Positions 7,078 to 28,200 of a stretch of 64,000 nt of DNA are shown here, piece by piece (position 1 is the stretch's first letter; the number at the start of each line of letters is the position of its first letter). The notes beneath the pieces are model-generated. The model was not told the origin of the DNA. It was given only the letters and a program-made list of their open reading frames with translations, and ran no database searches. Origin of the DNA: Patescibacteria group bacterium (lineage in GTDB: Bacteria > Patescibacteriota > Minisyncoccia > Phycocordibacterales > CAIZLB01); assembly GCA_040384445.1 (NCBI GenBank), contig JAZKJG010000001.1, positions 7,650 through 71,649 on the forward strand, given 5' to 3'. Position numbers and translations under genes: made by a program.

Positions 7078-7530
7078 ATGAACGAAACATTTGAAAACAA
7101 ACCAAAAGCTAAGAAAACTTTTACAAAATTAATACTATTACTCATCTCATACGTTATCATCGGCTTCATTGTTTGGAAGCTCGCAACCAAGCAAGTTGGA
7201 GACCCAGTAAAGCTTCAGGAGCAGGCACAAAAAGAGCTCACAACAATTGTTGAAAATGTCGGAAAGATTATGATCATCCCAAGTGACGAAACTCCACAGG
7301 TAGCAATCATCCAGGACGTAGACTCACTGAAGAAAGCACAAGACTTCTTCAAAGATGCGCAGAACGGAGACAAGATTCTAGTTTACACAAAAGCACGTAA
7401 AGCAATCATTTATCGAGATACAACAAATCAAATCGTAAACGTAGCACTGAACATTGGTCCAGTGACTGACGAAACAAACTCAGCTCCAATTCAGCAACAG
7501 CCAACATCAACAACAACATCAGAAAGATAG
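7078..7530 (+). CDS. Hypothetical membrane-anchored protein (N-terminal TM helix, 150 aa)
   Basis: ORF with N-terminal hydrophobic helix LILLLISYVIIGFIVW and a Thr-rich C-terminus. Preceded by AT-rich region with tataat-like box at ~7062. Directly upstream of the giant gene. Confidence 0.5.
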   Translation: MNETFENKPKAKKTFTKLILLLISYVIIGFIVWKLATKQVGDPVKLQEQAQKELTTIVENVGKIMIIPSDETPQVAIIQDVDSLKKAQDFFKDAQNGDKILVYTKARKAIIYRDTTNQIVNVALNIGPVTDETNSAPIQQQPTSTTTSER

Positions 7531-16500: not shown

Positions 16501-19500
16501 GAAGTAGTGCGGGAGCTTATGCAGACAATGCATCATCATCAAACTTCATTGGAAATGATGCAGGAGCATATTCTATCAACGCAGCCTTCTCAAACTTCTT
16601 AGGGCAAAGCGCAGGGTACGATGCTGATAATGCATTTAACTCAAACTTCATCGGACGAGTTACAGGGTATCAAGCAACAAATGCGCGTGACTCAAACTTC
16701 ATGGGATATGGTGCGGGACAGAGTTCGACAAACGCCGCATTCTCAAACTTCTTTGGAAATAATGCAGGAGGAAATGCTCCAAATGCATCATACTCAAACT
16801 TCCTAGGAGTTAGTGCAGGAGGAAATGCAACAAACGCCGCAAACTCTAACTTTATTGGATATAGTGCAGGAGCAAGTGCTACAAACGCACCTTTCTCAAA
16901 CTTCATTGGATACAATGCAGGAAATAGTGCAACAAACGCATCAACTTCAAACTTTATTGGATATAACGCTGGTAACGCCGCAACAAACGCCGCCTTCTCA
17001 AACTTTATTGGAAATAATGCAGGATATGGTGCAACAAATGCTAATTTCTCGAACATGCAAGGATATAACGCTGGGTATGCTGCGACAGGCGCAGTTGCTT
17101 CAAACTTCTTTGGTTTATCAGCTGGAAGTTATGCAACAGGAGCACATAACGCAAACTTCATTGGAAATAGTGCAGGAGGTTCTGCAACATATGCAGCGTA
17201 TGGAAACTTCATTGGAGCAAACGCAGGAGTAAATGCAACAAATGGAGAATTCTCAACCTTCATTGGATATAACGCCGGTAATGCTGCAACAAACGCATCT
17301 TCATCAGTGTTTATTGGGTATGCAGCAGGACAATCAGCAACAAATGCAAGACAATCAAACTTCATTGGTAATGGTTCAGGTTATCTTGCAACAAATGCAA
17401 CATTGTCAAACTTCTTTGGAATCAATGCGGGAAATAGTGCAACAAACGCTTCGTCATCAAACTTCATAGGTTACGGAACAGGAGCAAGTGCAACAAATGC
17501 CGCATTCTCAAACTTTAGTGGACAAGATGCAGGAGCAAGTGCAACAAATGCATCATACTCAAACTTCTTTGGATCACAGGCTGGTCAACTTGCAACAAAC
17601 GCAGTGAATGCAAACTTCTTTGGACGACAAACAGGATTCCTCGCAACTGACGCGTATGATTCAAACTTCATAGGATATGGTGCTGGATATCTTGCTACAT
17701 ACGCATCATCGTCAAACTTCTTAGGAAGATCAGCAGGATCAGGAGCAACAAACGCTGCTTTCTCAAACTTCATTGGAAATAGTGCAGGAAATAGTGCAAC
17801 GGATGCTATATACTCAAACTTCTTTGGTGTTAATGCAGGAATTTTTGCCACTGGAGCTTCTAACTCAAACTTTATGGGATATAGTGCTGGACATACTGCA
17901 ACAAATGCATATCTTTCAAACTTCCTTGGAAGAGCTGCTGGATCTGGGGCAACATATGCAGCATATTCAAACTTCCTTGGATATAACGCAGGGTTAAATG
18001 CAACAAACGCTGAGTACTCTAACTTTATCGGTAACTCAGCTGGAGAAACTGCCACAAATGCATCTACTTCAAACTTCATTGGAAATAACGCTGGAAAACA
18101 AGCAACGAATGCGTTACTTTCAAACTTTATTGGAAATAGTGCCGGTTACCTTGCAACAAACGCTGCTCTTTCAAACTTTATTGGTAATGGAGCGGGAAAT
18201 AGTGCACCAAACGCAGCGATCTCAAACTTTATTGGATATAACGCAGGAAACGATGCAGACAACGCATCATCATCAAACTTCATCGGATTCCAGGCAGGTA
18301 TGCAGGCAACAAATGCATCATCATCAAACATTATAGGAACATATGCAGGATATCAATCAACTAACGCAGCATACTCAAACTTCATAGGATATGGAGCAGG
18401 ACAGTATGCGACAAATGCGCGTAACTCAAACTTTATCGGACTTGGAGCTGGAGGTGGAGGTGTAGGATCATATGATTCAAACTTCTTTGGTGTGAACGCA
18501 GGATCAAATACAAATTCATATAGATCAAACTTTATTGGATATAATGCAGGAACAGATTCACTAAATGCAACATCATCAAACTTCTTTGGAGAGTATGCTG
18601 GATATGATTCAGACAATGCTGCAAAATCAAACTTCATCGGACATTTTGCTGGGTATAATGCAACAAACGCAACTCGATCAAACTTCATTGGAGAACTTGC
18701 TGGGTTCCAAGCAACTAATGCAATCGACTCAAGCTTCATTGGTCGTCAGGCAGGAGAATATGCAACGAATGCTTCATCTTCAGTGTTTATCGGTCGAACT
18801 GCAGGTGCAAGTGCTGTCAACGCCGCCTTCTCAACATTCATCGGTAATGCAGCAGGAGATAGTGCAACCGGCGCTGATAATGCAATATTCATTGGTAATG
18901 CTCCAGGTTACGCTGCAACAAATACTTCAGATGTAATATTCTTAGGTCGAGCAACAGGACAGTATGCATACAATGCAAGTAACTCATTCTTTGCAGGATA
19001 TGCTGCTGGATACGGTGCAACAAACGCATCAATGATGAATGTTATCGGGTGGAATGCTGGAAATGGAGCTACAGATGCAACATTCTCAAACTTCATGGGA
19101 TACTCTGCAGGGTATGGTGCAACAAACGTATCGTTCTCAAACTTCTTCGGCGCAACTGCTGGATATGGAGCAACATATGCTTCACAATCAAACTTCTTTG
19201 GACAATACGCCGGGCAAAATGCTGTCAATGCAGGTGCTTCAAACTTCTTTGGAGGTGGAGCTGGAGATGGGGCTACAGATGCCGCGAGTTCAAACTTCTT
19301 TGGATTTAATGCAGGAGCATTGGCAACAGATGCATCATTCTCAAACTTCTTAGGACAGTATGCAGGAAAAGATGCAACATATGCTTCACTTTCAAACTTT
19401 ATAGGATTCAGTGCTGGAGAAGATGCAACAAACGCAACTCAATCAATCTTCATTGGGTCAAATGCAGGAAAAAATGCAGCGTTTGCAAACAGCTCTATAT

Positions 19501-21308
19501 TTATTGGGCAAGATGCTGGTTATAACGATACTGTAGATAACTCTTCGAACTATAAATCTTCGATCTTGATTGGAGATTATACATCAACTGGAGGTTTCTC
19601 AAACTCAATTGCTATTGGTCAAGGTACAAAAAACAGTGCGACTGAACAATTAAACTTAGGAGGATTGATTTATGGTTTGGGAATACGGGCAACAACAACA
19701 CCAACAGCGACACCTGTAGTTGGTGGTAAAGTTGGAATTGGAACTTCAACCCCGTCAACAACACTGGATGTATGGGGTAACTTCCAAGTTGGAACTTCTT
19801 CAACACCACTTATATTCGCAAACACTGCAACCGGACGACTTGGAGTTGGAACAAGTGCTCCAGGAGCGTTGCTTGATGTTGGAGGCATAGGAGCATCACC
19901 AACAGGATTCCCTGATATGGTTGCTGGATTTAGAGGAACTGCAAATAACTACATGACTGTTGAGATGCAGAACATAAGTGTTGGAGGAAGTGCAGCAACT
20001 GTATTGTTCCTAAGTGGAATTGGAGGAAGTAATGCAATATCTTTAGGTCAGTATGGTGCAGGAAATTCTGGCTTTACAGGAGGTATTAACAACTATGATG
20101 TATCATTCTTGACTGCTGTAGGTAGTCTTGCTCTGGGTTCAGGGGCTTCAAAAAACATACTGTTCAATATTGGAACAACAGAAGCGGCGCGATTTAACAC
20201 AAGTGGATTCTTAGGTTTAGGAACATCAACTCCATCAACAAGACTTGATGTATGGGGTAATTTCCAAGTTGGAACATCTTCAAATCCAATCATTTTCGCA
20301 AACAGTGGAACTGGACGACTTGGAGTTGGATCATCAACACCGATTGCAATGCTCGCAGTTAAAGGTACTGCAGGTGTAAACCCATTTGTTGTTGCTTCAT
20401 CAACTAACACTCAGATGTTTACGATTACACAAGCTGGAAGTGTGGGAATCGGAAGTTCAACACCAATCGCAACATTCTCACTTACAGGAGTTGGAGGAAC
20501 AAACCCAATCATGATTGCATCATCAACAAATGCCAATATGTTAAGTCTTACACAAACAGGTAGACTTGGGGTTGGTACTTCGAGTCCAGTGCAAAGTTTG
20601 GCTGTTGTAGGAACAATACATTCAACAGTCTTGAACGGAGGTGCAACAACTCTTTCAGTTGATGCAAACGGAAACATTATCAGAACTCCGTCTGATGCAA
20701 CTTTAAAAACACAAGTTGAAACATTAACAAATGCACTTGATAAAGTAAAACAACTTCGAGGTGTGAGTTACCGATGGATTGATACAGAAAGATTTGGTTC
20801 TGATCAAGATATAGGTTTGATTGCACAAGAAGTCGAAACTGTTGTTCCTGAAGTTGTAAAATCAGGAGGAGCATATAAGTCAGTTAACTATCCAAACCTT
20901 GTTGCACTATTAATAGAGGCAATGAAAGAGTTGAATACAAAAGTTGAAAAAATTGCAGCATGGTTTGGAGGAGATCGATTCGATGTACAAGGAGATATTT
21001 GTGTAGACGATGTATGTGTGACGAAAGAGCAATTCAAAGCAATGTTGATCCAAGCACAAAATGGAGGTTCAGGATCATCATACACACCACCAACTCCGGA
21101 TCCTACTCCAACACCTGATCCAACACCAGAACCTACAGATGGAGGAAGTGGTAGTGATGGAGAAGGGACTCCACCGTCTACTGAAGAAACTCCTGCACCA
21201 ACACCAACTCCGACACCTGAGTCAACTCCAGAGCCAACGCCTGAACCTGTTCCAGAACCATCACCAACACCGGCGCCTGAGCCTGCACCTACAGTGGCAG
21301 CAGAATAG
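7575..21308 (+). CDS. Giant secreted repeat protein (4577 aa). Signal peptide. Phage-tail-fibre-like modules. C-terminal intramolecular-chaperone/peptidase S74-like domain. Pro/Thr-rich tail.
   Basis: Single uninterrupted 13.7-kb ORF. N-terminal signal peptide (KLSPIAFLLIIGMFFGVYGNLFAAPA). Repeated VGIGTSTP...KL.V.G motifs. ~48-aa TASTTEW repeats. ~70 copies of a 17-aa SNF(F/I)G..AG..ATNA repeat. C-terminal SDATLKTQV...LRGVSYRW...GLIAQEVETVVPEVV...VNYPNLVALLIEAMKEL block. Confidence 0.9.
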   Translation: MKFPFLTKKLSPIAFLLIIGMFFGVYGNLFAAPATGSLGFQGQLFNNGTAVTGSVNATFTFYDAAIGGSAQGSTILKTVTVANGYFGTQFTESDTTGIDFNQELFIEVVVNGTALTPRSSVNSVPVARKAFGTFAYSSAPAVGEAGSLYFNTTSDTLLVSDGTSWVPAGTASSTTQWTTNGSDLYFTTGNVGIGTSTPADKLSVVGTVRATSFVGDGSQLTGIPVLSTSSVRSMFSSTATGLTYTAGTGVFSLAAGYVIPLTASTTEWAAAAASTTAMTPAYFRGLVSNSVAGLTYNPTTGATTLTAGYNIPLTASTTEWASAAASTSPSAIRGLFSNGATGLTYNSSTGATSLAAGYVIPLSASTTEWAAASASTTAMTPSYFRGLLSATGPISYNSSTGAFTFSTSSLGLTTTNIAEGSNQYFTDARARSALSESVTGLEYATSTGIFSLTSGYVIPTTASTSEWASAAASTTAMTPSYFRGLLSNSAAGLAYNSSTGATTLTAGYNIPLTASTTEWSQAYASTAPSVIRGLFSNSTTGLTYNSSTGATSLTAGYVISLTASTTEWATAYASTTAQTPAYFRGLLSNSVAGLTYNSSTGATTLTAGYNIPLSASSSEWALAYASTSAMTPVYTRGLFSNSTTGLTYNSGTGATSLTAGYVIPLVASTTEWAASSASTSPSAIRGLFSNGATGLTYNSSTGATSFTAGYSIPLTASSTEWSSFFNTPSTRITAGSNLSWAGNTLNAALSFSTSSINYLRNVSGGLETATSTDFLRAAYFTATGTTASTFTNASSTNLTITGSLYNSSLSNGCLEVSGGLVTSTGSNCGVGSGGITSLNGQTNSSQSFATSSTAGTFGFGFSSAGGIHTLNISLASSTNTGLLSASDWTTFNNKQGVLSFGNLTSSATGLSVTGGTGAVVGAGAAVTLAAGYSIPLSASTTEWSVAYASTTALTPAYFRALLSNSATGLTYNSGTGATSLTAGYVIPLVASTTEWAAVAASTTPSAIRGLFSNSATGLTYNSSTGATSFTAGYSIPLTASSTEWSSFFNTPSTRITAGSNLSWAGNTLNANISTSSINYLRLVSGGLEISTSTDFIRAAYFTATSTTVSTFAGAVAIGTTTSLAKFDVNAGSALHANAFNIYGVSTLGIGSVFGRISNTNTTGRTLFSLGETSGDTSTPFYIQRYGSTHATTPNLVEIGIATATGDMAFLTNSVERLRVTSSGNVGIGSSTPSATLGVAGSLNVTGAFRANGDAGTSGQIFQSTGSGASWISTSTLNILGTTTIRTLFSSTATGLTYTSGTGVFSLTAGYVIPLTASSSEWALAYASTSAMTPTYTRGLFSNSTTGLTYNSGTGATSLTAGYVIPLVASTTEWAASSASTSPSVIRSLFSNSAAGLTYSSTTGATTLTAGYSIPLTASSTEWSSFFNTPSTRITAGNNLSWTGNTLNASFSTSSVNYVRIVSGGLETATSTDFLRAAYFTATSTTGTSTFAGLVGIGTTTPSATLGVNGSINVTGAFRANGDAGTSGQIFQSTGSGASWISTSTLNILGTTTIRTLFSSTATGLTYTSGTGVFSLTAGYVIPLTASTTEWATAYASTTALTPAYFRGLLSNSATGLTYNSTTGATSFTAGYSIPLTASSTEWSSFFNTPSTRITAGSNLTWSGNTLNANISTSSINYLRLVSGGLETSTSTDFLRAAFFTATSTTATSTFAGYVGVGTSSPLAKLHVFGGTASPQVVVDSGSQNLDLYAAATTSNIDFSSILLFRSKTFANRGTNTGAVEYGRFDASGNFQVGTSTALGRVNIQGVNSSPTNAALSVYNSTGTNLLNVMNGGNVGIGSSTPSATLGVAGSLNVTGAFRANGDAGTSGQIFQSTGSGASWISTSTLNILGTTTIRTLFSSTATGLTYTSGTGVFSLTAGYVIPLVASSSEWSLAYASTSAMTPTYTRGLFSNSTTGLTYNSGTGATSLTAGYVIPLIASTTQWATAYASTTALTPAYFRGLLSNSATGLTYNSTTGATSFTAGYSIPLTASSTEWSSFFNTPSTRITAGSNLTWSGNTLNANISTSSINYLRLVSGGLETATSTNFLRAAYFTATSTTGTSTFAGAVAIGTTTSPYKLAVIGDSYFSGNINAFSYGADAYHILGSNQHNTVTIKKGTGYGSGIHFEDGSSNLWDISTDSSNNFSIFNYSPSATAFAINKSNNYVGIGTSTPIFALDVVGAAGTVIRANSSGSTYIDANTGSASSNGGFSFSALGSNKWLLYRDGDDDSVNFFSNTLAQSVLTMNAAGNVGIGTTTPTEKLSIAGALNLTGAFKSNGNAGTLGQVLQTTGTGVQWVATSSLGISGGSLSGGTDGYLARWTSASTLSSGLFLDNGTVAGINATSSSYTFNVKGNSGVNPFNVASSTGTSMFAIANNGRVTVYGDIETDDDISNTFLGVGAGKGSVLDGGSNTAVGSDALYTNTGSFGGYGYDNTALGAYSLYSLNAVSGGSGYANVAVGVKALWLNVLGSENVALGTKALEDMTDGYGNIAIGNNAGNNQTLGSYNIVIGNVVSLASTTGSNQLNIGNLLFGTDLGTGGGISTGNIGIGTNAPAYRLDVNGTGRFVRSSVDGALVLDNSTSDANSILFQTAASNKWSTYLSGNDLRFYDYSGNADRLTLKSGGNVGIGTTTPTERLSIAGALNLTGAFKANGDAGSVGYVMISQGTSTAPIWVATSSLGLSGGAGVGTINSGTAGQVAFYAGSGTTVSGTSTLFFSAGNIGIGTTTPGYRLTVDGDVWLGTTTLANGNLVIGKDGSVTSRGQAGSVFLGLDAGNGATSSNSSNFFGISAGQNAAYASYSNFFGEEAGYGATYATNSNFFGDSAGYDATNAESANFFGNEAGVNATNALFSNFFGAAAGYGATDAANSNFFGRQAGSYATDAYNANFFGDFAGSGATYATNSNFFGDSAGYDATYAYNSNFFGEQAGYDAENAYDSNFLGSSAGAYADNASSSNFIGNDAGAYSINAAFSNFLGQSAGYDADNAFNSNFIGRVTGYQATNARDSNFMGYGAGQSSTNAAFSNFFGNNAGGNAPNASYSNFLGVSAGGNATNAANSNFIGYSAGASATNAPFSNFIGYNAGNSATNASTSNFIGYNAGNAATNAAFSNFIGNNAGYGATNANFSNMQGYNAGYAATGAVASNFFGLSAGSYATGAHNANFIGNSAGGSATYAAYGNFIGANAGVNATNGEFSTFIGYNAGNAATNASSSVFIGYAAGQSATNARQSNFIGNGSGYLATNATLSNFFGINAGNSATNASSSNFIGYGTGASATNAAFSNFSGQDAGASATNASYSNFFGSQAGQLATNAVNANFFGRQTGFLATDAYDSNFIGYGAGYLATYASSSNFLGRSAGSGATNAAFSNFIGNSAGNSATDAIYSNFFGVNAGIFATGASNSNFMGYSAGHTATNAYLSNFLGRAAGSGATYAAYSNFLGYNAGLNATNAEYSNFIGNSAGETATNASTSNFIGNNAGKQATNALLSNFIGNSAGYLATNAALSNFIGNGAGNSAPNAAISNFIGYNAGNDADNASSSNFIGFQAGMQATNASSSNIIGTYAGYQSTNAAYSNFIGYGAGQYATNARNSNFIGLGAGGGGVGSYDSNFFGVNAGSNTNSYRSNFIGYNAGTDSLNATSSNFFGEYAGYDSDNAAKSNFIGHFAGYNATNATRSNFIGELAGFQATNAIDSSFIGRQAGEYATNASSSVFIGRTAGASAVNAAFSTFIGNAAGDSATGADNAIFIGNAPGYAATNTSDVIFLGRATGQYAYNASNSFFAGYAAGYGATNASMMNVIGWNAGNGATDATFSNFMGYSAGYGATNVSFSNFFGATAGYGATYASQSNFFGQYAGQNAVNAGASNFFGGGAGDGATDAASSNFFGFNAGALATDASFSNFLGQYAGKDATYASLSNFIGFSAGEDATNATQSIFIGSNAGKNAAFANSSIFIGQDAGYNDTVDNSSNYKSSILIGDYTSTGGFSNSIAIGQGTKNSATEQLNLGGLIYGLGIRATTTPTATPVVGGKVGIGTSTPSTTLDVWGNFQVGTSSTPLIFANTATGRLGVGTSAPGALLDVGGIGASPTGFPDMVAGFRGTANNYMTVEMQNISVGGSAATVLFLSGIGGSNAISLGQYGAGNSGFTGGINNYDVSFLTAVGSLALGSGASKNILFNIGTTEAARFNTSGFLGLGTSTPSTRLDVWGNFQVGTSSNPIIFANSGTGRLGVGSSTPIAMLAVKGTAGVNPFVVASSTNTQMFTITQAGSVGIGSSTPIATFSLTGVGGTNPIMIASSTNANMLSLTQTGRLGVGTSSPVQSLAVVGTIHSTVLNGGATTLSVDANGNIIRTPSDATLKTQVETLTNALDKVKQLRGVSYRWIDTERFGSDQDIGLIAQEVETVVPEVVKSGGAYKSVNYPNLVALLIEAMKELNTKVEKIAAWFGGDRFDVQGDICVDDVCVTKEQFKAMLIQAQNGGSGSSYTPPTPDPTPTPDPTPEPTDGGSGSDGEGTPPSTEETPAPTPTPTPESTPEPTPEPVPEPSPTPAPEPAPTVAAE
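8340..9760 (+). repeat. Intragenic tandem ~48-aa (~144-bp) repeats: IPLTASTTEW.A.AST......RGL.SN...GLTYNS.TGAT.LTAGY
   Basis: Direct reading of translation. Approximately 10 consecutive units. Additional dispersed copies at ~10380-10720, 11500-11860, 12300-12500, 13320-13700. Confidence 0.85.
11237..11700 (+). repeat. Long near-identical intragenic direct repeat, copy A (>95% nt identity to 13070-13510; partial copy at 12107-12310)
   Basis: By eye, the stretch ggaaatgttggaattggttcttcaactccatcagc...ggatatgt and the following ~200 nt recur almost base-for-base. Confidence 0.8.
13070..13510 (+). repeat. Long near-identical intragenic direct repeat, copy B
   Basis: See copy A. Only a handful of substitutions over >400 nt. 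Confidence 0.8.
16030..19520 (+). repeat. Array of ~70 degenerate 17-aa (51-bp) repeats SNF(F/I)G..AG..ATNA.. (coding, inside the giant gene)
   Basis: Strict 17-residue periodicity in translation with invariant N-F-x-G ... A-G ... A-T/x-N/x-A positions. Spurious ORFs in all other frames show the same periodicity. Confidence 0.9.
20688..20965 (+). other. Intramolecular chaperone / peptidase S74-like autoprocessing domain (protein domain inside giant gene 1)
   Basis: The motifs TPSDATLKTQVE, LRGVSYRWID, IGLIAQEVETVVPEVV and VNYPNLVALLIEAMKEL match hallmark blocks of the C-terminal chaperone domain of phage endosialidase/tail-spike proteins (SD.RLK.N cleavage motif; here SDATLK). Confidence 0.7.
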
Positions 21309-21318
21309 TATAAATTAC

Positions 21319-21348
21319 TTGCTATATCATTGAACTAATTGATATAAT
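21319..21348 (+). promoter_or_regulatory. Candidate sigma70-like promoter (ttgcta-18-tataat) for the WxL-like cassette
   Basis: ttgcta at 21319-21324, 18-nt spacer, tataat at 21343-21348, ~30 nt upstream of the 21379 start. Confidence 0.35.
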
Positions 21349-21378
21349 ATAAAAACAAACAAATAATAAAAAACATTC

Positions 21379-22029
21379 ATGACACCCTTACTTAAAAAAA
21401 GCATTACTTCATTTGTTTCAATTACACTATGTACTTTGAGTATATTTATAATCGCAGAACCTGCGATTATAAGTGCGGTTACAGATGATGTAGTTGTCAA
21501 CTTGACTGTTGATTCTGGGATCGCGATTACATCTCCTACCGATGTAACACTTGGATCATCTAACATGGGTGTGTCAGTAAACAGTGCTATTGGAACAGCT
21601 GTGTGGAACGTTAAAACAAACGATCCGGATGGATATTTGTTAACTATTAAAAATGCCTCAACTTCTCCAGCACTAAAGGGAGCTGGTGGAATTGGAAATT
21701 TTGCTGATTACACAGAAGCAGTTGCGAACACTCCTGAACTCTGGGCAGTGGATGCATCAACATATCAGTTTGGTTACTCAGTGAGGGGAACAGATGTGAA
21801 CACTGGTACATATGGATCAGGTGCAGATTGCGGAACAGGTAACACACCAAGTGGAACACTTAAGTATCGACATGCTTCAACAACTGCCATCACAGCAGCT
21901 ACGCGCTCGTCTACAACCACTACGGCTGGAATTGATACAACTGCTTGTTTCGCCGCAGGGCAGAACGGTGTGTATGCAGCCGCAGGTTCATATAGTGCTA
22001 CAATTACAGCAACAGCTACAACACTCTAG
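21379..22029 (+). CDS. Secreted WxL-domain-like surface protein (216 aa)
   Basis: Signal peptide. N-terminal NLTVDSG...VTLG segment (like the LSLDSVP..FDFG block of WxL proteins). WNVKTNDPDGYLLTIK (like V.DNRG..GW.L.V). C-terminal GSYSATITATATTL (like the ..Y.G.ITW.L.. tail). Paralogue of 23075-23824. Confidence 0.6.
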   Translation: MTPLLKKSITSFVSITLCTLSIFIIAEPAIISAVTDDVVVNLTVDSGIAITSPTDVTLGSSNMGVSVNSAIGTAVWNVKTNDPDGYLLTIKNASTSPALKGAGGIGNFADYTEAVANTPELWAVDASTYQFGYSVRGTDVNTGTYGSGADCGTGNTPSGTLKYRHASTTAITAATRSSTTTTAGIDTTACFAAGQNGVYAAAGSYSATITATATTL

Positions 22030-22077
22030 GAAGTGTGCAAGTAAACTGTATATTTCTAAATTTAATCCCAAGATAAT

Positions 22078-23046
22078 ATGAGTCACGTAACGCACATGCT
22101 AAAAAAAAATATTATCAGAGGATTGCTCCTGTGTATAATCATTTTCTCGTCCCAGGCACATGCTGAGGTTGTGAGAACACAACTCAATGTAGATGATACA
22201 AATGACTTTGTTGTTGAACCTGGAAAAACTGAAATATACTTAAATCCTGGGGAATCAATTAAGAAAAGTGTTTCAATAACAAATAGACAAAATAAAAAAG
22301 TTTCGTACTCGATTAAGATCGAAGATTTTGTTGGAACAGAAGACCCAAATAATCCAATTAAACTATTAGGAGAGGAGGCTGGACCGTATTCTCTTAAAAA
22401 TCTTGTAGTTCCTGAATTGGCAGAGTTTACTTTAAATTTTGGGGAACGAATTGTTATACCAATAGAAGTAAATATACCCGTAACAGCAGAACCTCGTGGA
22501 TATTACGGGGCAATAGTTGTATCTAATCAACCAGAAATCGACGATCAAGTTTCAGGGAACTCTGGAGCAGAGGGAAAAACTAGACTCATTTCTAGAATTG
22601 GTTCGCTTTTGCTTGTGAGAGTGAATGGGTTAGGGGAGGAATCAGGAAAGCTTGAAGATTTAAAACTGTTAGGACCTTCAAAATTATTTTATGAAAAAAA
22701 ACCAGCAGGGTTTGAAATATTGTTTAGAAATGATGGAAATGTGCACCTTGTCCCAAGTGGAAAAATTTCTATCACGAATATTATAGGAAAAAAAGTTGCA
22801 GAGCTTCCTGTTGATGCATATTTTGCACTTCCGGATTCTTTGCGATACAGAGAAATCCAGTGGCAAGAAGGATTTGGATTTGGAAGATATAAAGCTAATC
22901 TTTCATTGTATAGGGGGTATGGAAATCAATTCGATGAAGATTCGGTTGTGTTCTGGGTTTTGCCTTGGAAATTATTACTTGCAATATTTGTTATAATTTG
23001 TTTTATATATTATATTTCAAGGAAATTTGAATTTAAAAGAAAGTAA
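22078..23046 (+). CDS. DUF916/DUF3324-like (CscA-like) cell-surface protein, signal peptide + C-terminal TM anchor with basic tail (322 aa)
   Basis: Signal peptide LLLCIIIFSSQAHA. Beta-rich body. C-terminal WVLPWKLLLAIFVIICFIYYISRKFEFKRK anchor. Position between two WxL-like genes matches the csc-type cluster layout. Confidence 0.5.
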   Translation: MSHVTHMLKKNIIRGLLLCIIIFSSQAHAEVVRTQLNVDDTNDFVVEPGKTEIYLNPGESIKKSVSITNRQNKKVSYSIKIEDFVGTEDPNNPIKLLGEEAGPYSLKNLVVPELAEFTLNFGERIVIPIEVNIPVTAEPRGYYGAIVVSNQPEIDDQVSGNSGAEGKTRLISRIGSLLLVRVNGLGEESGKLEDLKLLGPSKLFYEKKPAGFEILFRNDGNVHLVPSGKISITNIIGKKVAELPVDAYFALPDSLRYREIQWQEGFGFGRYKANLSLYRGYGNQFDEDSVVFWVLPWKLLLAIFVIICFIYYISRKFEFKRK

Positions 23047-23074
23047 TTTTGAATTTGTAACATATTAATAATCC

Positions 23075-23824
23075 ATGACACATCGTCATTTTCACAGTTT
23101 CATAATGATACTTCTGACTTTTGTTCCTATCTATGCAATAGGACAAGTGATGCAGAGTACTGTGTACAAGATTGAATCTGACAGTATTAATTTTGGAGGA
23201 GGAAATTCATCAAGTACAAGCTATAGTCTAGAAGATACCTTGGGTGAAATTGCTTCAGGGTATAGTTCGAGTTCTTCTTATGTGATGAATGCAGGCTATC
23301 AACACATGAATGAGTCCACATACATAACTCTAAGTGCTTTGAGCGATTTAAATCTTGGAACAATTGGAGGGTTCGTAGGAGGTGTTGCAACAGGAACTCA
23401 TTCGTGGGTGGTTACTACAAATAACCCTGAAGGATACACACTCACCGCCAAAGCATCAACAGCGCCAGCTCTCACATCTGGTGCGGCATCTTTTGGTGAC
23501 TACGTTCCCGCTGGACCTGACCCTGATCTAAACTTTACAGTTTCTGCAACGAGTTCAAAGTTCGGATTTTCACCTGAAGGTGTGGATGTTGTGCAAAGAT
23601 TTAAGGATAATGGATCGTCATGTAATGCAGGAACATCAAACACAACCGATGCATGTTGGGATGGATTTTCAACTACAACAAAATCTGTATCATTAAGAAA
23701 TTCAAGTAATTTACCATCAGGTTCAACAACGACTATAAAATACCGTGCAGAAATCGGAGCCTCATATTTTCAGGATGCAGGTGATTATTCTGCAATTATA
23801 ACAATTACCGCGCTTGCACTATAA
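23075..23824 (+). CDS. Secreted WxL-domain-like surface protein, second paralogue (249 aa)
   Basis: Signal peptide. ITLSALSDLNLGTIGG. WVVTTNNPEGYTLTAK. C-terminal GDYSAIITITALAL. Alignable with 21379-22029 over the full length. Confidence 0.6.
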   Translation: MTHRHFHSFIMILLTFVPIYAIGQVMQSTVYKIESDSINFGGGNSSSTSYSLEDTLGEIASGYSSSSSYVMNAGYQHMNESTYITLSALSDLNLGTIGGFVGGVATGTHSWVVTTNNPEGYTLTAKASTAPALTSGAASFGDYVPAGPDPDLNFTVSATSSKFGFSPEGVDVVQRFKDNGSSCNAGTSNTTDACWDGFSTTTKSVSLRNSSNLPSGSTTTIKYRAEIGASYFQDAGDYSAIITITALAL

Positions 23825-25182
23825 TGAAAAAAAATGTATTCACGCATGTAAAAATCTTAACTTTAACTAGTATGTGTGTTATGGGTTTAGGTTTGCATGC
23901 GGATATAGATGTTAATTTAATGGTCGAAGGTTGCAATAATGATACTGTGTGTGAAATTCAGTACGGTGAAAGTTTTAATTCATGTCCAAACGATTGTGCC
24001 TATGTTGCGCCAACATCAACTCCTCCAACGCCAGTCACTCCACTGCCATCTGCTGATTCTTCTGGAATACTATTTGGAACTAAGGGTGACACAACATTGC
24101 GATTTGAAAATGTTCATATTACGCACGGACTTGATTCTGCTGTTTTAACATGGAATACGACACGTCCCACTAAGTCATCAATCAGTTGGGGACTGACAGA
24201 TGATTACGCTGAAGGTGTGCTGTCGGAAATTGAATTCATCAAAACACATTCATCAAAAATTAATAATATTATTCCAGGAAAAATATATGTATTTAAAATT
24301 ACGGCAGTAGATGCAGACGGAGTTTATGTAACATATTCTGGAAACTTTTTACTTAAAAAAGAAACCCCTGTACTCTTGCCACTAAACGTTGCTGATTTTA
24401 GAATTTTTACTGCTCCAACAGGAATTGGACTCAGGTGGAATAATGTAAGTGATTTAGAATATGAATATGTACGAATTATTAGGTCCACAACAGGATATCC
24501 TCATAATCCATCAGATGGAAAAGTTGTATATGAGGGTAAGGGACAAAGCTTTGTAGATATAAATGTGCTTGAGGGGGTAAGATATTATTATGCTGCGTTT
24601 GTTCGAAATCAATCCTCACAATATTCTTCAGGAGTTTTAAGGACAGTAATAAAATATAAAAACGGAATCACTCCACTTGATTCTGATGTTGGTTTTCCAT
24701 TTGAAAATGATAATCAGATAGATACTGCAATTCCGTCAAATGTATTCCAACTCACACATCAAGATATAGATTTTATTCAAAATAATACAAAGATCTCTTT
24801 CATATCTTCAGTCGTCCCTGTAAATTCAAGTATTCCGCTAATTGTAAGTGTTCCTAAATTTAATAATTCAGTAGTGTTTTTGACAATGACCTCAAGTGAT
24901 CAGACATATTTATTTGCATACAATGTTAGCGATGATAGATTAGAGGTGCAAATTCCATCCTTGCACACAGATAATTCTATTGAATATTTTCTGTATATAT
25001 TAAATGATGGTACTTTCTATAAGCTTAATCAAGGAACATTCGACCTGTCTCCATCTGTCGATTATACCGACACGAGAAATGGCAAAAAAAGAGCTCAAAA
25101 CCTTAAAGATTTTCTTATAATTATACCTATTGCTGTTTTTTTGATTGCGATTAAATTGATTTATAGAATTTTTAAAAAATAA
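23824..25182 (+). CDS. Surface protein with Cys-rich N-terminal module, Pro/Thr linker, two FN3-like domains and C-terminal TM anchor (452 aa)
   Basis: Signal peptide. CNNDTVCEIQYGESFNSCPNDC. PTSTPPTPVTPLP linker. Two ~90-aa segments with FN3-like W..T and Y.Y.A patterns. Terminal FLIIIPIAVFLIAIKLIYRIFKK. Confidence 0.6.
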   Translation: MKKNVFTHVKILTLTSMCVMGLGLHADIDVNLMVEGCNNDTVCEIQYGESFNSCPNDCAYVAPTSTPPTPVTPLPSADSSGILFGTKGDTTLRFENVHITHGLDSAVLTWNTTRPTKSSISWGLTDDYAEGVLSEIEFIKTHSSKINNIIPGKIYVFKITAVDADGVYVTYSGNFLLKKETPVLLPLNVADFRIFTAPTGIGLRWNNVSDLEYEYVRIIRSTTGYPHNPSDGKVVYEGKGQSFVDINVLEGVRYYYAAFVRNQSSQYSSGVLRTVIKYKNGITPLDSDVGFPFENDNQIDTAIPSNVFQLTHQDIDFIQNNTKISFISSVVPVNSSIPLIVSVPKFNNSVVFLTMTSSDQTYLFAYNVSDDRLEVQIPSLHTDNSIEYFLYILNDGTFYKLNQGTFDLSPSVDYTDTRNGKKRAQNLKDFLIIIPIAVFLIAIKLIYRIFKK

Positions 25183-25191
25183 GCACATTTC

Positions 25192-25226
25192 ACGAAATAA
25201 TTGTTGATAATTGTTTCGTTTTTTCG
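25192..25226 (+). terminator. Intrinsic terminator (12-bp hairpin acgaaataattg/taattgtttcgt + tttttcg)
   Basis: Stem with two G-U pairs, 4-nt loop, followed by T-run. Sits between the cassette and giant gene 2. Confidence 0.5.
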
Positions 25227-25270: not shown

Positions 25271-28200
25271 ATGGGTACATTTATCATAAAGCACGTTCAG
25301 AAAAACTGTAAAAAGTTTTTAAAAACTTTCCTTATCTTAGGATTGTTTTTAATGTGTTTTACTGCATATAGTGTGGTATATGCTGCGTTTAATCCTCAGA
25401 TAAATTACCAGGGAAAACTTACAGATGCTTCAGGTAACCCTGTTGCAAATGGAACATACAATATTGAATTTAAATTGTATACAGTTTCAAGTGGTGGAAG
25501 TCCTATTTGGACAGAAACAAGAACTGGAGGAGATAAGGTTACAATTACAAATGGACTGTTCAGTGTGATGCTTGGAAGTGTAAATTCAATTTCAGGAATT
25601 GATTTTAATCAACCATTATATCTAGGGGTAAATATTGGAGGAACAGGTTCACCATCTTATGACGGTGAAATGACTCCTCGAAAAACTTTCGGTACTGTAC
25701 CTGCATCATTTGTTGCACAGACACTTGAAGGATATCGAGCGATTCAATTTTTGCGAAGTGATGTTATAAATTCAACAAGTACAGGAGCTACGTTTTTAAA
25801 ACTTGAGCAAGCTGGAGCTGGAGCGATTGCAGAATTTATTGGAAATACTTCATCAACAATTCTTGGAATATATTCTGCAGGAGGTGGAGCTGTTGGAATT
25901 GGAACAACAACTCCAACAGAGAAGCTTACTATTGCAAATGGAAATTTGTTACTACAAGGAGAATACGGTGTGAAATGGACAGGAGGTTCTCAACTGTACG
26001 AACAAACTGTTGCAGGGGCTGGAGTTGATAGAATGATTTATCGACCTAATGGAGATCGATTTGATGTTATCGATGAAGCCGGTTCAACGTTCATGGCATC
26101 ATTCAATGTAAGTAATATACAGTTGTTTACTGCAGGTGTTTCAAGATTGTTTATTGATTCTTCAGGAAACCTTGGTATTGGAACTACGACCCAAACAGAA
26201 AAACTCACAATCGCAGGAAACATCAACCTCACCGGTGCATTCAAATCAAACGGAAACGCCGGAACACTGGGACAAGTATTACAAACAACAGGAACTGGGG
26301 TGCAATGGGTTGCAACATCAACTCTTGGAATATCAGGCGGATCACTCTCAGGTGGAACTAATGGGTATCTATCACGATGGACAAGTTCCTCAACTTTGAG
26401 TACGGGATTATTTCTAGACAATGGAACTGTAGCGGGAATTAACGCAACATCTTCATCATACACATTTAATGTAAAAGGATCAGGAGCGCTCGGTGCCTTC
26501 AATGTTGCGTCGTCGACTGGTACTTCGCTCCTCAACGTGAGGGCGAATGGGTATGTAGGAATCGGAACAAACGCTGCTGCATATCAGCTGGATGTAAAAG
26601 CTGATACTTCTGGCATTACTAACGTACTGAACCTAAGTAGTTCTATGACAGGGGCTGGAGATGGTACAGGAATTCTATTCTCTAGTTCTGAGGGAAGTCT
26701 ACATGCGCGTATACGAACCAGTGCCTATACAGGTACAACAGCAGGTTTAATATTCGAAGTAACCCCTTCAACTGATACCTTAACTGAAGCACTGCGTATC
26801 ACAGATACTGGAAATGTAGGAATCGGAACAACAACTCCATCTGCAAAACTAGATGTATGGGGAAATTTGAAAGTAGGAACATCATCAACACCAATTTTGT
26901 TTGCAAACACAGCAACAGGAAAAGTTGGTATTGGAACAGTATCGCCAGCGCATACATTAGATTTGGGAGGAGTAAGTCCGACTTTAAATGTTGGGTTATA
27001 CGGAGGGGGAGGTGCTGCAACTATTCGTATGTTGGGGGAAGCATTGTTTAGTTTCTCTGGTGGAACAGTCGGATCAACTATTGCAATAGGCTCTGCTGAT
27101 ACTTCTGTTGATTTTGACCTTGCGTTCCATGCAGGAGGATCGAACAGAATGTATATAGATGGGGCGACTGGTAATGTTGGAATCGGAACAACAACATCAG
27201 TAGAACTTCTCACAATTGCAGGAAATCTCAACCTCACAGGTGCACTCAAATCAAACGGAAATGCAGGAACTCTCGGACAAATATTACAAACAACAGGAAC
27301 CGGAGTACAATGGGTTGCTACATCATCATTAGGTATTTCAGGTGGAGGAGGATCGGGAACTGTAAACTCTGGACTTCTTGGTCAAGTTGCTTTTTATAGT
27401 GCAAATGGAACAGCGGTTTCAGGAACTTCAACATTGTTTATCACTGGTGAAAAGATTGGAGTTGGAACAACGACTGTAACAGAAAAATTAGTAGTCGATG
27501 GAAATGCTCTTATTACAGGATTACTAAAAGGTGGTACTTCTGCAAATATTAATTTAAATGGACTGTCTAATAACGGTGTAGATTTTAACTATTTAAATGG
27601 AGGTATATTTCGTACTGCAGAAACAAGTATTGCAGGAACAAATGATATATTCTTCCAAGGAGTTCCTGCTACTACTGCTGGATATACCTATCTTGAAGCA
27701 TGGCAATCTGCTGGTTTGATTTTAGGAACGGGAAATTCAACTGCAATTATTTTCAAACCAAACAGAACTGAATACATGCGACTTACTGGAACTGGTGATT
27801 TGGGAATTGGGACATCTACTCCAATTGCAAAACTTGCAGTTACAGGAACAGGAACAACAACAGGTAAAGCTTTCGTTGTTGCAAACTCAAACAATACTCC
27901 GATATTCACAATGCTTGATAATGGAAATATTGGAAATGGTGTAGGCGCTGACCCTGTATCATGGGATTTCCATATACAAAGAACTGGAAATTTGTACGCA
28001 ACCCTACAAAGTTCAACAGGACATTCTACCCTTCGTCTTGTGAGTGCCACAGGGTTGAGCCCCACTCTTCATTTTGGTGACGGGTCAAGTAATCGATGGG
28101 ACGTTGTTTCAAATGGTTCAAACTCAGGAAACCTTGAGTTTAATTCATATTCTGTAGGAAATGTAATGAGTCTAGGTTTGACAACTGGACTTGTAGGAAT

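What the first reader, a model, noticed from the sequence alone, without database searches (positions are those of the whole stretch)
21319..25182. WxL-like / DUF916-like (csc-type) surface cassette in a genome that otherwise does not look Firmicute
The two small secreted proteins carry the three WxL hallmarks in the correct order. Trp is replaced by Tyr or Ala in two of the motifs (GYLLT, ITATATTL). The protein between them has the DUF916 topology (signal peptide, C-terminal TM plus basic tail). The fourth has FN3 domains and a TM anchor instead of an LPXTG motif. This looks like a divergent csc-like cluster. Adjacent ttgcta-18-tataat promoter and downstream terminator suggest one operon.
Basis: partly seen in the sequence, partly recalled or inferred. 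Interest (0 to 1): 0.7.

Follow-up and report, generated by a model that had tools for sequence, protein, structure and literature searches.

The report
Minimal Pam-like pilus operon in CPR
A strongly conserved four-gene operon in a Patescibacteria (CPR) genome encodes two pilin-like secreted proteins, a membrane-anchored chaperone that is a distant relative of the WxL-interacting protein of Firmicutes, and a fibronectin-type membrane anchor; it most likely builds a small surface fibre of the recently described Pam type without an usher.

Summary
Four co-directional genes lie at 21379-25182: A 216 aa, B 322 aa, C 249 aa, D 452 aa. They have the stated topologies, a promoter-like site and a terminator hairpin. 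The contig is a Patescibacteria MAG, not a Firmicute. The order A(n)-B-C-D recurs in 55 related CPR loci.

- None of the three Pfam models hits the window proteins at E<=10. WxL hits none of 95 family members.
- B is nevertheless a real remote homologue of WxLIP (DUF916+DUF3324+TM). hhalign gives 97% (E 1e-10). The DUF916 part alone gives 92%. Its three best PDB fold matches are E. faecium WxLIP, followed by chaperone-usher chaperones.
- D has two FN3 domains, a C-terminal TM helix and an N-terminal strand resembling that of A, like PamR.

Best reading: a minimal, single-chaperone variant of the Pam pilus, with single-domain subunits, assembled by donor-strand exchange. Homology of A and C to WxL domains is unproven (hhalign 1-3%). 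The Pam preprint never mentions WxL. A common ancestry of Pam pili and WxL/csc clusters is therefore the interesting open lead.

The parts
21319..21348 (+). Promoter-like site TTGCTA-18 nt-TATAAT with TG upstream of the -10 hexamer, 31 nt before the start of gene A
   Evidence: 10 of 12 matches. The count of such sites in the region is not above shuffles, so this is consistent with a promoter but not proof. The sequence can be read.
21379..22029 (+). Gene A, 216 aa. A secreted single-domain pilin-like subunit, proposed to be the major subunit. After the signal peptide comes a conserved strand, VTDDVVVNLTVDSGIAI. It has one Cys pair (151/190) and ends ..YSATITATATTL.
   Evidence: Paralogue of C. 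Present in 1-3 tandem copies in related loci. N-terminal strand conservation. No Pfam or NCBIfam hit.
22078..23046 (+). Gene B, 322 aa. Signal peptide, two Ig-like beta-sandwich domains, C-terminal TM helix and a basic tail. A membrane-anchored chaperone of the WxLIP / PapD type.
   Evidence: AF2 model, pLDDT 85.6. Foldseek top 3 are E. faecium WxLIP, followed by the chaperones CfaA, CsuC, Caf1M, CupB2, EcpB, DraB and FimC. hhalign against WxLIP gives 97%. 16 of 44 family members hit PF06030 and 13 of 44 hit the MSP domain. It is the most conserved of the four genes (mean column identity 68%).
23075..23824 (+). Gene C, 249 aa. Signal peptide, then a conserved 55-aa N-terminal extension (residues about 26-78, S-x-x-Y repeats) that AF2 leaves disordered, then a pilin-like beta-sandwich core (79-249) with Cys183/Cys194. 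A PamT-like subunit, proposed to sit at the tip.
23824..25182 (+). Gene D, 452 aa. Signal peptide, N-terminal strand DIDVNLMVEG, a four-Cys knot, a Pro-rich linker, two FN3 domains, a further domain, a C-terminal TM helix and a basic tail. Proposed PamR-like terminator and membrane anchor.
   Evidence: fn3 hit in 36 of 39 family members. PDB tandem-FN3 hits at E 6e-15. Invariant L32, C37, C43, C54 and C58. Similarity of its N-terminal strand to that of A.
25192..25224 (+). Intrinsic-terminator-like hairpin (12-bp stem, 4-nt loop) followed by a U-run, 10 nt after the stop codon of D
   Evidence: dG -9.7 kcal/mol, z -2.8; 2 of 200 shuffles fold as well. Sequence.
7575..21308 (+). Context, not shown to be part of the system. 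A giant 4577-aa surface protein with a Peptidase_S74 (tail-fibre intramolecular chaperone) domain near its C-terminus, immediately upstream of the cassette.
   Evidence: Peptidase_S74 at E 1.2e-17. Giant S74 proteins also lie next to the cassette in L002 and L003. The Pam preprint reports a tail fibre-like protein co-localised with pam operons.
25271..32719 (+). Context. A second giant surface protein (2482 aa), immediately downstream, sharing repeat modules with the upstream one.
   Evidence: No Pfam hit at E<=0.001, S74 included, in its last 700 aa.

Best explanation
The cassette is a minimal, usher-less, chaperone-assisted donor-strand fibre system of the Pam (CPR-type pilus) kind.

Proposed mechanism.
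1. All four proteins are exported by Sec.
2. B stays in the cytoplasmic membrane by its C-terminal helix. Like PapD/FimC and like Firmicute WxLIP, it holds newly exported A and C by lending a beta-strand to their incomplete beta-sandwich. The likely donor is the conserved ..LISRIGSLLLV.. strand that follows the flexible loop 156-168.
3. C, the PamT-like subunit with a 55-aa N-terminal extension, starts the fibre and ends up at its tip.
4. Copies of A then add from the base. Each inserts its N-terminal strand (VTDxVVVxLxVDSG) into the groove of the previous subunit.
5. D ends growth by inserting its similar N-terminal strand (IxVNLxVxG) into the last A. Its C-terminal TM helix ties the fibre to the membrane, and its two FN3 domains span the wall.
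6. The fibre probably serves attachment to a host cell, possibly together with the neighbouring giant tail-fibre-like proteins.

Shown here: gene order and its conservation; protein topologies; homology of B to WxLIP and its chaperone-like fold; the pilin-like fold of C; homology of the C family to PamT; FN3 domains in D; the conserved N-terminal strands.

Inferred, not shown: strand donation, polymerisation, the order of subunits, and the function.
For: - Operon anatomy and conservation: A(n)-B-C-D in 55 CPR loci. A is duplicated in 10 of them plus one extra downstream copy, as expected for a major subunit.
- B model: two Ig-like domains plus a TM helix. Top PDB fold hits are WxLIP (E 2e-12), one of them solved bound to a long WxL protein, then chaperone-usher chaperones at E 1e-9 to 1e-7.
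- hhalign of B against WxLIP: 97%. Ectodomain only: 87.5%. Domain 1 only: 92.4%. Controls: 0.1-0.2%.
- For WxLIP, AF2 predicts a loop strand inserting into a gap of the WxL sandwich (PMC10599100).
- All 50 C-family members hit NCBIfam CPR_pilus_PamT, best E 7e-15.
- The A/C core aligns over 160 columns with the C-terminal domain of larger pilins from related two-chaperone CPR operons (30%, E 5e-4). The N-terminal extension of C matches their N-terminal repeats (74%, E 3e-5).
- D matches the described PamR architecture: N-terminal strand, two FnIII domains and a C-terminal TM helix.
- A PSSM built from the N-terminal strand of A finds its best match at the mature N-terminus of D in 10 of 40 D proteins (about 0.65 expected). 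The window D scores above the 99th percentile of shuffles.
- Giant S74 tail-fibre-like neighbours, as reported for pam operons.
- B is the most conserved protein and D the least (68% against 31% mean column identity). That pattern fits an internal chaperone and exposed parts.
Against: - No filament has been seen for this clade, and no complex was modelled (no multimer prediction was available).
- The PamT match is far below the equivalog cut-off (37.6 against 240 bits) and covers only the N-terminal half.
- No NCBIfam Pam model hits A, B or D.
- The subunits are single-domain, unlike the two-domain PamA, PamB and PamE. There is one chaperone instead of two.
- The similarity between the N-terminal strands of A and D is weak in most genomes. 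30 of 40 D proteins score best elsewhere, and most scores lie within the shuffle range.
- The roles of the chaperones, PamT and PamR are themselves AlphaFold-based proposals in a preprint.
- The nearest experimentally studied relatives of B, the WxLIPs, are not known to build fibres.
Confidence: 0.55

Rival explanations
1. A csc/WxL-type cell-surface complex rather than a fibre. B (WxLIP-like) binds and stabilises A and C as single copies on the cell envelope. They form a non-polymeric platform, possibly peptidoglycan-binding, as proposed for the WxL clusters of Lactobacillales and Bacillales. D replaces the LPXTG protein as the anchored partner.
For: - B is homologous to WxLIP.
- The gene order small subunit - chaperone-like protein - second subunit mirrors WxL - WxLIP - large WxL in E. 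faecium and on plasmids.
- The three motif positions of A and C line up colinearly with the WxL hallmarks in greedy hhalign alignments.
- Genuine WxL proteins can also lack Trp: pXO1 has ..LTYSIV.., and a Listeria plasmid protein has GYDVVL and ..TVTVAVV...
Against: - The WxL HMM hits none of 95 A- and C-family members.
- hhalign probability is 1-3%.
- The C family is homologous to PamT of a proven pilus system.
- A and D carry conserved N-terminal strands, which a static platform does not need.
- Tandem duplication of A fits a major structural subunit.
Confidence: 0.25
2. An accessory module for the neighbouring giant tail-fibre-like proteins. The chaperone and small subunits fold, dock or tether the 4577-aa and 2482-aa surface proteins to the membrane, for example by strand exchange with a terminal strand of the giant protein, rather than forming a fibre of their own.
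For: - The cassette is flanked on both sides by giant surface proteins in the window.
- Giant proteins with a Peptidase_S74 domain lie next to it in L002 and L003.
- Giant ORFs also follow the tandem chaperones in the distant loci L078-L081.
- The Pam preprint finds a tail fibre-like protein central in the pam neighbourhood network.
Against: - In L004 and many other loci the cassette sits among housekeeping genes (rpsL-rpsG-fusA, FKBP, ABC transporters) with no adjacent S74 giant.
- The cassette has its own promoter-like site and terminator.
- The N-termini of the giant proteins do not resemble the strand shared by A and D (read).
- The A, B, C and D HMMs found no related domain in the giant ORFs.
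Confidence: 0.12
3. Four unrelated secreted or membrane proteins that happen to be adjacent. The motifs would be chance similarities in Thr/Ser/Ala-rich beta proteins.
For: Low-complexity T/S/A-rich composition. The promoter-like count is not above chance. The WxL similarity is not significant.
Against: Fixed order and sizes in 55 loci across Paceibacteria, Nomurabacteria and Minisyncoccia. Translational overlap of C and D. Significant homologies of B and C to components of known surface-assembly systems.
Confidence: 0.03

Closest known systems
Pam pilus of Candidatus Mycosynbacter amalyticus (Saccharimonadia, CPR); Troman et al. 2026 preprint 10.64898/2026.03.03.709456; NCBIfam NF058579 (PamT) and NF058581 (Pam pilin)
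   Same: - CPR-restricted and Sec-exported, with no usher or trans-envelope machine.
- A PapD-like chaperone kept in the membrane by a C-terminal TM helix.
- Ig-like subunits proposed to assemble by donor-strand exchange.
- A PamT-like subunit (C family, 50 of 50 hits to NF058579).
- A PamR-like protein with an N-terminal strand, two FnIII domains and a C-terminal TM helix.
- A tail-fibre-like giant neighbour.
   Different: - Lineage: Paceibacteria, Nomurabacteria and Minisyncoccia, rather than the Saccharimonadia and Microgenomatia highlighted in the preprint.
- Four genes only, with one chaperone instead of PamC plus PamD.
- Structural subunits of about 185 aa with a single domain, instead of the two-domain PamA (55 kDa), PamB (39 kDa) and PamE.
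- PamT score far below the NCBIfam cut-off.
- Pam models do not detect A, B or D.
- No ATP-synthase neighbourhood in the window.
WxL / WxLIP (csc) cell-surface clusters of Lactobacillales and Bacillales (Siezen 2006, PMC1534035; Hassan 2022/2023, PMC9772566 and PMC10599100; PDB 9i1y and 9i25)
   Same: - B shares the architecture of WxLIP: signal peptide, DUF916-like Ig domain, second Ig domain, C-terminal TM helix and basic tail.
- B is detectably homologous to WxLIP and is its best structural match.
- A small secreted beta-sandwich protein is encoded just upstream and a second one just downstream.
- A strand from the WxLIP loop is predicted to complete the partner's sandwich.
- An anchored fourth protein is present.
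   Different: - The Pfam WxL, DUF916 and DUF3324 models do not reach the window proteins.
- Domain 2 is not recognisable as DUF3324 by sequence.
- A and C lack both Trp residues and show no significant profile similarity to WxL domains.
- There is no large multi-domain WxL adhesin.
- The anchor is a TM helix, not an LPXTG sorting signal.
- The host is a CPR bacterium, not a Firmicute.
Archaic chaperone-usher pili (Csu of Acinetobacter, CupE of Pseudomonas; SCPU-domain pilins)
   Same: - CsuC and other chaperone-usher chaperones follow WxLIP among the matches of B.
- One C-family member weakly hits the SCPU Pfam model.
- The logic of chaperone plus donor-strand subunits is the same.
   Different: - No usher and no outer membrane.
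- The chaperone is membrane-anchored rather than free in the periplasm.
- The terminator/anchor is an FN3 membrane protein.
- There is no significant sequence similarity.

Membership tests
WxL domain (Pfam PF13731) | Significant match to the WxL HMM | tested here: not met
   No hit at E<=10 for A or C. 0 of 50 C-family and 0 of 45 A-family members at E<=1. A locally built WxL HMM does not rank A or C among its top window ORFs.
WxL domain (Pfam PF13731) | Two Trp-x-Leu motifs on adjacent strands, preceded by D-x-R-G | tested here: not met
   A has GYLLT and ITATATTL. C has GYTLT and ITITALAL. Neither has Trp at either position, and the turn is 3 residues shorter. Caveat: some annotated WxL proteins also lack Trp.
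WxL domain (Pfam PF13731) | Profile-profile or fold similarity to genuine WxL domains | tested here: inconclusive
   [not shown]
WxL domain (Pfam PF13731) | Non-covalent binding to peptidoglycan | not testable with these tools
   Needs a binding assay.
WxLIP (DUF916 PF06030 + DUF3324 PF11797 + TM) | Match to PF06030 above the gathering threshold | tested here: not met
   The window B protein has no hit at E<=10. 16 of 44 family members give weak hits, best E 8.7e-4.
WxLIP (DUF916 PF06030 + DUF3324 PF11797 + TM) | Remote homology of the N-terminal domain to DUF916 | tested here: met
   hhalign, full length 97.0% (E 1.2e-10); ectodomain 87.5%; domain 1 92.4% (E 5e-7); cross-controls 0.1-0.2%. 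The PDB profile search ranks EfmWxLIP1 first, but at E 0.07. A local WxLIP HMM picks B as the only window ORF, at E 4e-4.
WxLIP (DUF916 PF06030 + DUF3324 PF11797 + TM) | Second domain recognisable as DUF3324 | tested here: not met
   No Pfam hit. hhalign of domain 2 alone gives 0.8%. Only the fold and the position agree; the Foldseek alignment spans about 270 columns.
WxLIP (DUF916 PF06030 + DUF3324 PF11797 + TM) | Two perpendicular Ig-like domains followed by a C-terminal TM helix; best structural match to solved WxLIP | tested here: met
   AF2 model. Foldseek top 3 are 9i25_C, 9i1y_A and 9i1y_B at E 2e-12 to 7e-12. TM-scores are only 0.38-0.48.
Pam (CPR-type) pilus | PamT equivalog (NF058579, cut-off 240 bits) | tested here: not met
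   C scores 37.6 bits, E 1.6e-9, over residues 10-129 only. Homology is clear at family level, with 50 of 50 members matching, best E 7e-15. C is a homologue, not an equivalog.
Pam (CPR-type) pilus | PapD/FimC-like chaperone with a C-terminal TM helix | tested here: met
   Direct comparison with PamC and PamD was not possible because their sequences were not obtainable here.
Pam (CPR-type) pilus | Two-domain pilins (nine-strand N-terminal sandwich, linker strand, truncated Ig C-terminal domain) | tested here: not met
   A and C have a single beta-sandwich core of about 170 aa. That core aligns weakly with the C-terminal domain of larger pilins from related two-chaperone CPR loci (30%, E 5e-4).
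Pam (CPR-type) pilus | PamR-like terminator: N-terminal strand, two FnIII domains, C-terminal TM helix | tested here: met
Pam (CPR-type) pilus | Restricted to CPR; tail-fibre-like neighbour | tested here: met
   All 67 genome loci come from CPR-type MAGs, apart from a few bins with odd labels. S74 giants lie next to the cassette in the window, L002 and L003.
Pam (CPR-type) pilus | Subunits form an extracellular filament by donor-strand exchange | not testable with these tools
   Needs multimer modelling, cryo-EM or biochemistry.
Chaperone-usher pili | Outer-membrane usher encoded with the chaperone and pilins | tested here: not met
   No usher-sized beta-barrel gene lies in the cassette or its flanks.

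The most novel reading that the evidence does not exclude
The membrane-anchored chaperones of CPR Pam pili and the WxL-interacting proteins of Firmicutes would be one ancient family. This four-gene cassette would be the minimal form that bridges them, with single-domain subunits and a WxL-cluster-like gene order. WxL/csc clusters and Pam pili would then be two branches of a monoderm, usher-less system built on a chaperone and donor strands. That would predict either that WxL proteins are handled (and perhaps polymerised) by strand exchange, or that the CPR system began as a surface complex.
Probability: 0.4. Interest if true: 0.8.

Novelty: new variant of a known kind. Interest (0 to 1): 0.62.

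Why it matters
CPR bacteria are a large, mostly uncultured part of bacterial diversity that live attached to other cells. How they attach is largely unknown.

- A conserved core-genome operon for a second, non-type-IV surface fibre would extend the just-described Pam system beyond Saccharimonadia and Microgenomatia. The lineages concerned here are Paceibacteria, Nomurabacteria and Minisyncoccia.
- B-type chaperone relatives number 6318 clusters at 50% identity in public data. The cassette would also define the minimal parts list for such a fibre.
- The demonstrable homology of its chaperone to Firmicute WxLIP gives a mechanistic hypothesis, donor-strand complementation, for the long-puzzling WxL/csc clusters of enterococci, listeriae and lactobacilli.
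- It also suggests a deep evolutionary link between surface-assembly systems of monoderm bacteria and the chaperone-usher pili of diderm bacteria.

Tried and rejected
- Sequence searches of the PDB with single proteins and family profiles gave nothing significant for A, C, or the larger pilins of related loci. PamA and PamB appear not to be in the copy searched. For B they gave only a non-significant first-ranked hit to EfmWxLIP1.
- The weak top hit 'BtpiA' (9jdi_C) could not be traced in the literature.
- A 126-aa EfmWxLIP1 fragment used as query returned only gene fragments. I therefore collected WxL clusters from a Logan E. faecium contig and from plasmids.
- Enlarging the WxL alignment from 11 to 25 domains, and the CPR subunit alignment to 116 sequences, raised hhalign probability only from about 1% to 3%. 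WxL homology therefore remains undemonstrated.
- NCBIfam Pam models did not recognise the pilins or chaperones of the distant two-chaperone loci, apart from one match to the N-terminal part of PamT. Those loci could not be certified as genuine pam operons.
- The HMMs for A, B, C and D find no further copies in the window, except an FN3-related ORF at 40102-41010.
- Chance adjacency was rejected on synteny.
- A mobile-island origin was rejected. The neighbours are rpoB/rpoC, RF-2, CTP synthase or rpsL-rpsG-fusA, and the GC content of the cassette (34-36%) matches the rest of the genome rather than standing out.

Full report
**What is there**

The interval 21319-25182 holds four co-directional ORFs:
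- A, 21379-22029, 216 aa
- B, 22078-23046, 322 aa
- C, 23075-23824, 249 aa
- D, 23824-25182, 452 aa

They are separated by 48 and 28 nt, and C overlaps D by one base (TAATG). Upstream lies TTGCTA-18-TATAAT with a TG extension (21319-21348). Such sites are no more frequent here than in shuffled sequence. Ten bases after the stop codon of D lies a 12-bp hairpin followed by a U-run (25192-25224; dG -9.7 kcal/mol, z -2.8).

Hydropathy and the AF2 helices show an N-terminal signal-like segment in all four proteins. B and D also have a C-terminal TM helix with a basic tail. A and C are paralogues (36% identity over 171 aa, E 1e-17).

**Whose genome, and is it more than chance**

B and C are identical to hypothetical proteins V4686_00085 and V4686_00090 of a 'Patescibacteria group bacterium' MAG with a 314-kb contig.

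The window is ordinary chromosome. It carries rpoB, rpoC, two unknown ORFs, a 4577-aa giant protein with a Peptidase_S74 domain, the cassette, and a 2482-aa giant protein. After these come an RNase J-like gene, an RF-1/PCRF-domain release-factor gene, CTP synthase and a GDSL lipase.

A scan of one genome per GTDB species found 67 loci. Essentially all are CPR MAGs: Paceibacteria/Paceibacterota, Nomurabacteria, Minisyncoccia and Taylorbacteria, with more distant relatives in Moraniibacteria. Classifying their ORFs with family HMMs gives the order A(n)-B-C-D in 55 loci: ABCD 44, AABCD 8, AAABCD 2, ABCDA 1. Among the close loci, the rest are cut by contig ends; the distant loci L074-L082 have a different architecture (see 'A and C') (examples).

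The B profile finds 6318 cluster representatives at E<=1e-3 among 1.84 billion. This is a large, conserved, core-genome operon of one CPR branch.

hmmscan against Pfam gives no hit at E<=10 to WxL, DUF916 or DUF3324 for any of the four proteins. WxL is also absent from all 50 C-family and 45 A-family members. The picture changes when families and structures are used.

**B is a remote WxLIP homologue with a chaperone fold**

- 16 of 44 B-family members give weak hits to PF06030 (now named WxLIP_PGBD), and 13 hit the MSP domain.
- The AF2 model (pLDDT 85.6) has two beta-sandwich domains, one flexible loop (156-168) and a C-terminal helix.
- Against the whole PDB, its three best Foldseek matches are E. 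faecium WxLIP structures: 9i25_C, solved bound to a long WxL protein, and 9i1y_A and 9i1y_B (E 2e-12 to 7e-12). Next come a Vpr fibril and RbmA, together with a long run of chaperone-usher chaperones: CfaA, CsuC, Caf1M, CupB2, EcpB, DraB and FimC.
- I collected genuine WxL clusters from an E. faecium contig and 14 plasmids and ran profile-profile comparisons. B family against 16 WxLIPs gives 97.0% (E 1.2e-10). With signal peptide and TM helix removed it gives 87.5% (E 3.6e-6). Domain 1 against the DUF916 part gives 92.4%. Domain 2 against the DUF3324 part gives 0.8%. Swapped-domain controls give 0.1-0.2%.

So the DUF916-like call is right at the level of remote homology. The DUF3324 call rests on fold and position only.

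Hassan et al. (PMC10599100) report that AF2 places a loop strand of WxLIP into a gap of the WxL sandwich. That is the logic of a pilus chaperone.

**A and C are pilin-like subunits, and C is a PamT homologue**

- NCBIfam gives C a hit to NF058579, 'CPR-type pilus protein PamT' (E 1.6e-9; 37.6 bits against a cut-off of 240; residues 10-129).
- All 50 C-family members hit this model, best E 7e-15.
- The AF2 model of C has a confident beta-sandwich core (79-249, pLDDT above 90). Its strongly conserved N-terminal extension (23-78) is left disordered.
- Foldseek finds nothing significant, but the list is rich in chaperone-usher pilins. CsuA/B has probability 0.96 and TM 0.60.
- No WxL chain appears in either list.
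- hhalign of the A/C core against 11 or 25 WxL domains gives only 0.7-3.3%. The short local hits fall on the GY.L / GW.L motif and on the C-terminal Y...TxT / Y...TW.L motif. A greedy alignment is colinear through all three hallmarks.
- Some annotated WxL proteins themselves lack Trp.

WxL homology of A and C is therefore possible but not shown.

Distant CPR loci (L075, L078-L081) carry 334-390-aa pilins ending ..DYTDTWTIIGAGSF. These are followed by two tandem B-like chaperones and a giant ORF, which recalls the PamC/PamD arrangement. The A/C core aligns with the C-terminal domain of those pilins over 160 columns (30%, E 5e-4). The extension of C aligns with their N-terminal repeats (74%, E 3e-5).

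**D is an FN3 membrane anchor with a donor-like strand**

- 36 of 39 D-family members hit fn3 (best E 1e-8). The profile hits tandem-FN3 proteins in the PDB at E 6e-15.
- After the signal peptide, D begins with a conserved strand, I-x-V-N-L-x-V-x-G. A four-Cys knot follows (invariant L32, C37, C43, C54, C58).
- Mature A begins with V-T-D-x-V-V-V-x-L-x-V-D-S-G-I.
- In this genome the two strands read DDVVVNLTVDSG (A) and DIDVNLMVEG (D).
- A PSSM of the A strand finds its best match at the mature N-terminus of D in 10 of 40 D proteins, against about 0.65 expected. Only a few scores exceed the shuffle range.

This matches the description of PamR in the preprint: RbmA-like, two FnIII domains, a C-terminal TM helix and an extra N-terminal strand predicted to plug the last pilin.

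**How it most likely works**

The preprint 10.64898/2026.03.03.709456 solved two filaments from Ca. Mycosynbacter amalyticus. It proposed a CPR-specific pilus with these features:
- It is assembled without an usher by membrane-anchored PapD-like chaperones.
- It is nucleated by PamT and terminated by PamR.
- Its operon is accompanied by a tail fibre-like protein.

Every element has a counterpart here, so I read the cassette as a minimal Pam-type system. B is the chaperone, C the tip, A the major subunit (it is often duplicated) and D the terminator and anchor.

The differences are real:
- one chaperone instead of two;
- single-domain subunits of about 185 aa instead of the two-domain PamA, PamB and PamE;
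- a different CPR class;
- no recognition of A, B or D by NCBIfam Pam models.

Polymerisation, subunit order and function are inferences. Confidence in the mechanism is about 0.55. Confidence that B is a WxLIP/PapD-type chaperone is higher.

**Rivals**

1. A non-polymeric csc/WxL-like surface complex (0.25). It is supported by the homology of B and by the gene order. It is weakened by the pilin-like fold, the PamT homology and the conserved N-terminal strands.
2. An accessory module for the flanking giant S74 proteins (0.12). It is supported by co-localisation in some loci but not in others.
3. Chance adjacency (0.03). It is excluded by synteny.

**Novelty**

The kind of system (Pam pilus) was described in 2026, so this is a new variant of a known kind. 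What appears unreported in the searchable literature is the link between Pam-type chaperones and WxLIP. The preprint contains no mention of WxL, DUF916 or DUF3324. No paper in the library links WxL with donor-strand or chaperone-usher assembly.

If the subunits too prove homologous, Pam pili and the WxL/csc clusters of Firmicutes would be branches of one monoderm system built on a chaperone and donor strands.

**Limits**

- Only two structure predictions and three fold searches were available.
- No multimer modelling or pairwise superposition was possible.
- PamA to PamD sequences could not be obtained.
- Taxon labels come from MAG record titles.

Noticed in passing
window 7575-21308 and 25271-32719: Two giant surface proteins (4577 and 2482 aa) flank the cassette. 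They share long near-identical modules, for example ..SILIGDYTSTGGFSNSIAIGQGTKNSATEQLNLGGLIYGLGIRATTTPTATPV.., and long runs of an SNF-containing ~20-aa repeat. Only the first has a Peptidase_S74 (tail-fibre chaperone) domain, and both end in Pro/Thr/Glu-rich tails.
   Followed up: partly
window 23150-23308 (C residues 26-78): The N-terminal extension of C (three S-x-x-Y-x-hydrophobic repeats: YKIESDSINFGG / SYSLEDTLGE / SYVMNAGY) is among the most conserved parts of the family, and it is the part shared with PamT. AF2 nevertheless leaves it disordered (pLDDT below 50). It probably folds only on a partner. Its role is unexplained.
   Followed up: partly
L074-L082 (e.g. L078 7-5852, L080 1104-6661): Distant CPR relatives have 1-3 pilins of 334-390 aa ending ..DYTDTWTIIGAGSF. 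Two tandem B-like membrane-anchored chaperones and a giant ORF follow. This looks like the two-chaperone Pam layout, but NCBIfam Pam models hardly recognise it.
   Followed up: partly
L013 (pXO1 77943-79704), L087, L088: On pXO1-like Bacillus plasmids the WxL/WxLIP pair sits a few small ORFs downstream of a CpaF/VirB11-family ATPase gene. The pXO1 WxL protein has Tyr in place of the second Trp (..LTYSIVTGP). A Listeria plasmid WxL protein (L014) has GYDVVL and ..TVTVAVVQGP, so Trp is not invariant in annotated WxL proteins.
   Followed up: no
window 40102-41010 (- strand): A 302-aa ORF elsewhere in the window matches the D-family HMM at E 8e-12, presumably through an FN3 domain. It was not examined further.
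   Followed up: no
window 6276-6911 and 7078-7530: Two ORFs (211 aa, and 150 aa with one N-terminal TM segment) lie between rpoC and the first giant gene. They have no Pfam hit and no similarity to the cassette proteins.
   Followed up: partly
PDB 9jdi_C 'BtpiA': The only (non-significant, E 0.37) PDB sequence hit of the C-family profile is a protein called BtpiA. The alignment falls on the ..W-T-[VI]-x-x-D-x-x-x-G-Y-x-L.. motif. No paper mentioning it was found.
   Followed up: partly
L006 2281-3436: In this E. faecium locus A contig the WxLIP gene is split by a frameshift into 143-aa and 257-aa ORFs. The 143-aa product is on record from 9 contigs, so the split may be a real pseudogene in some strains.
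   Followed up: no
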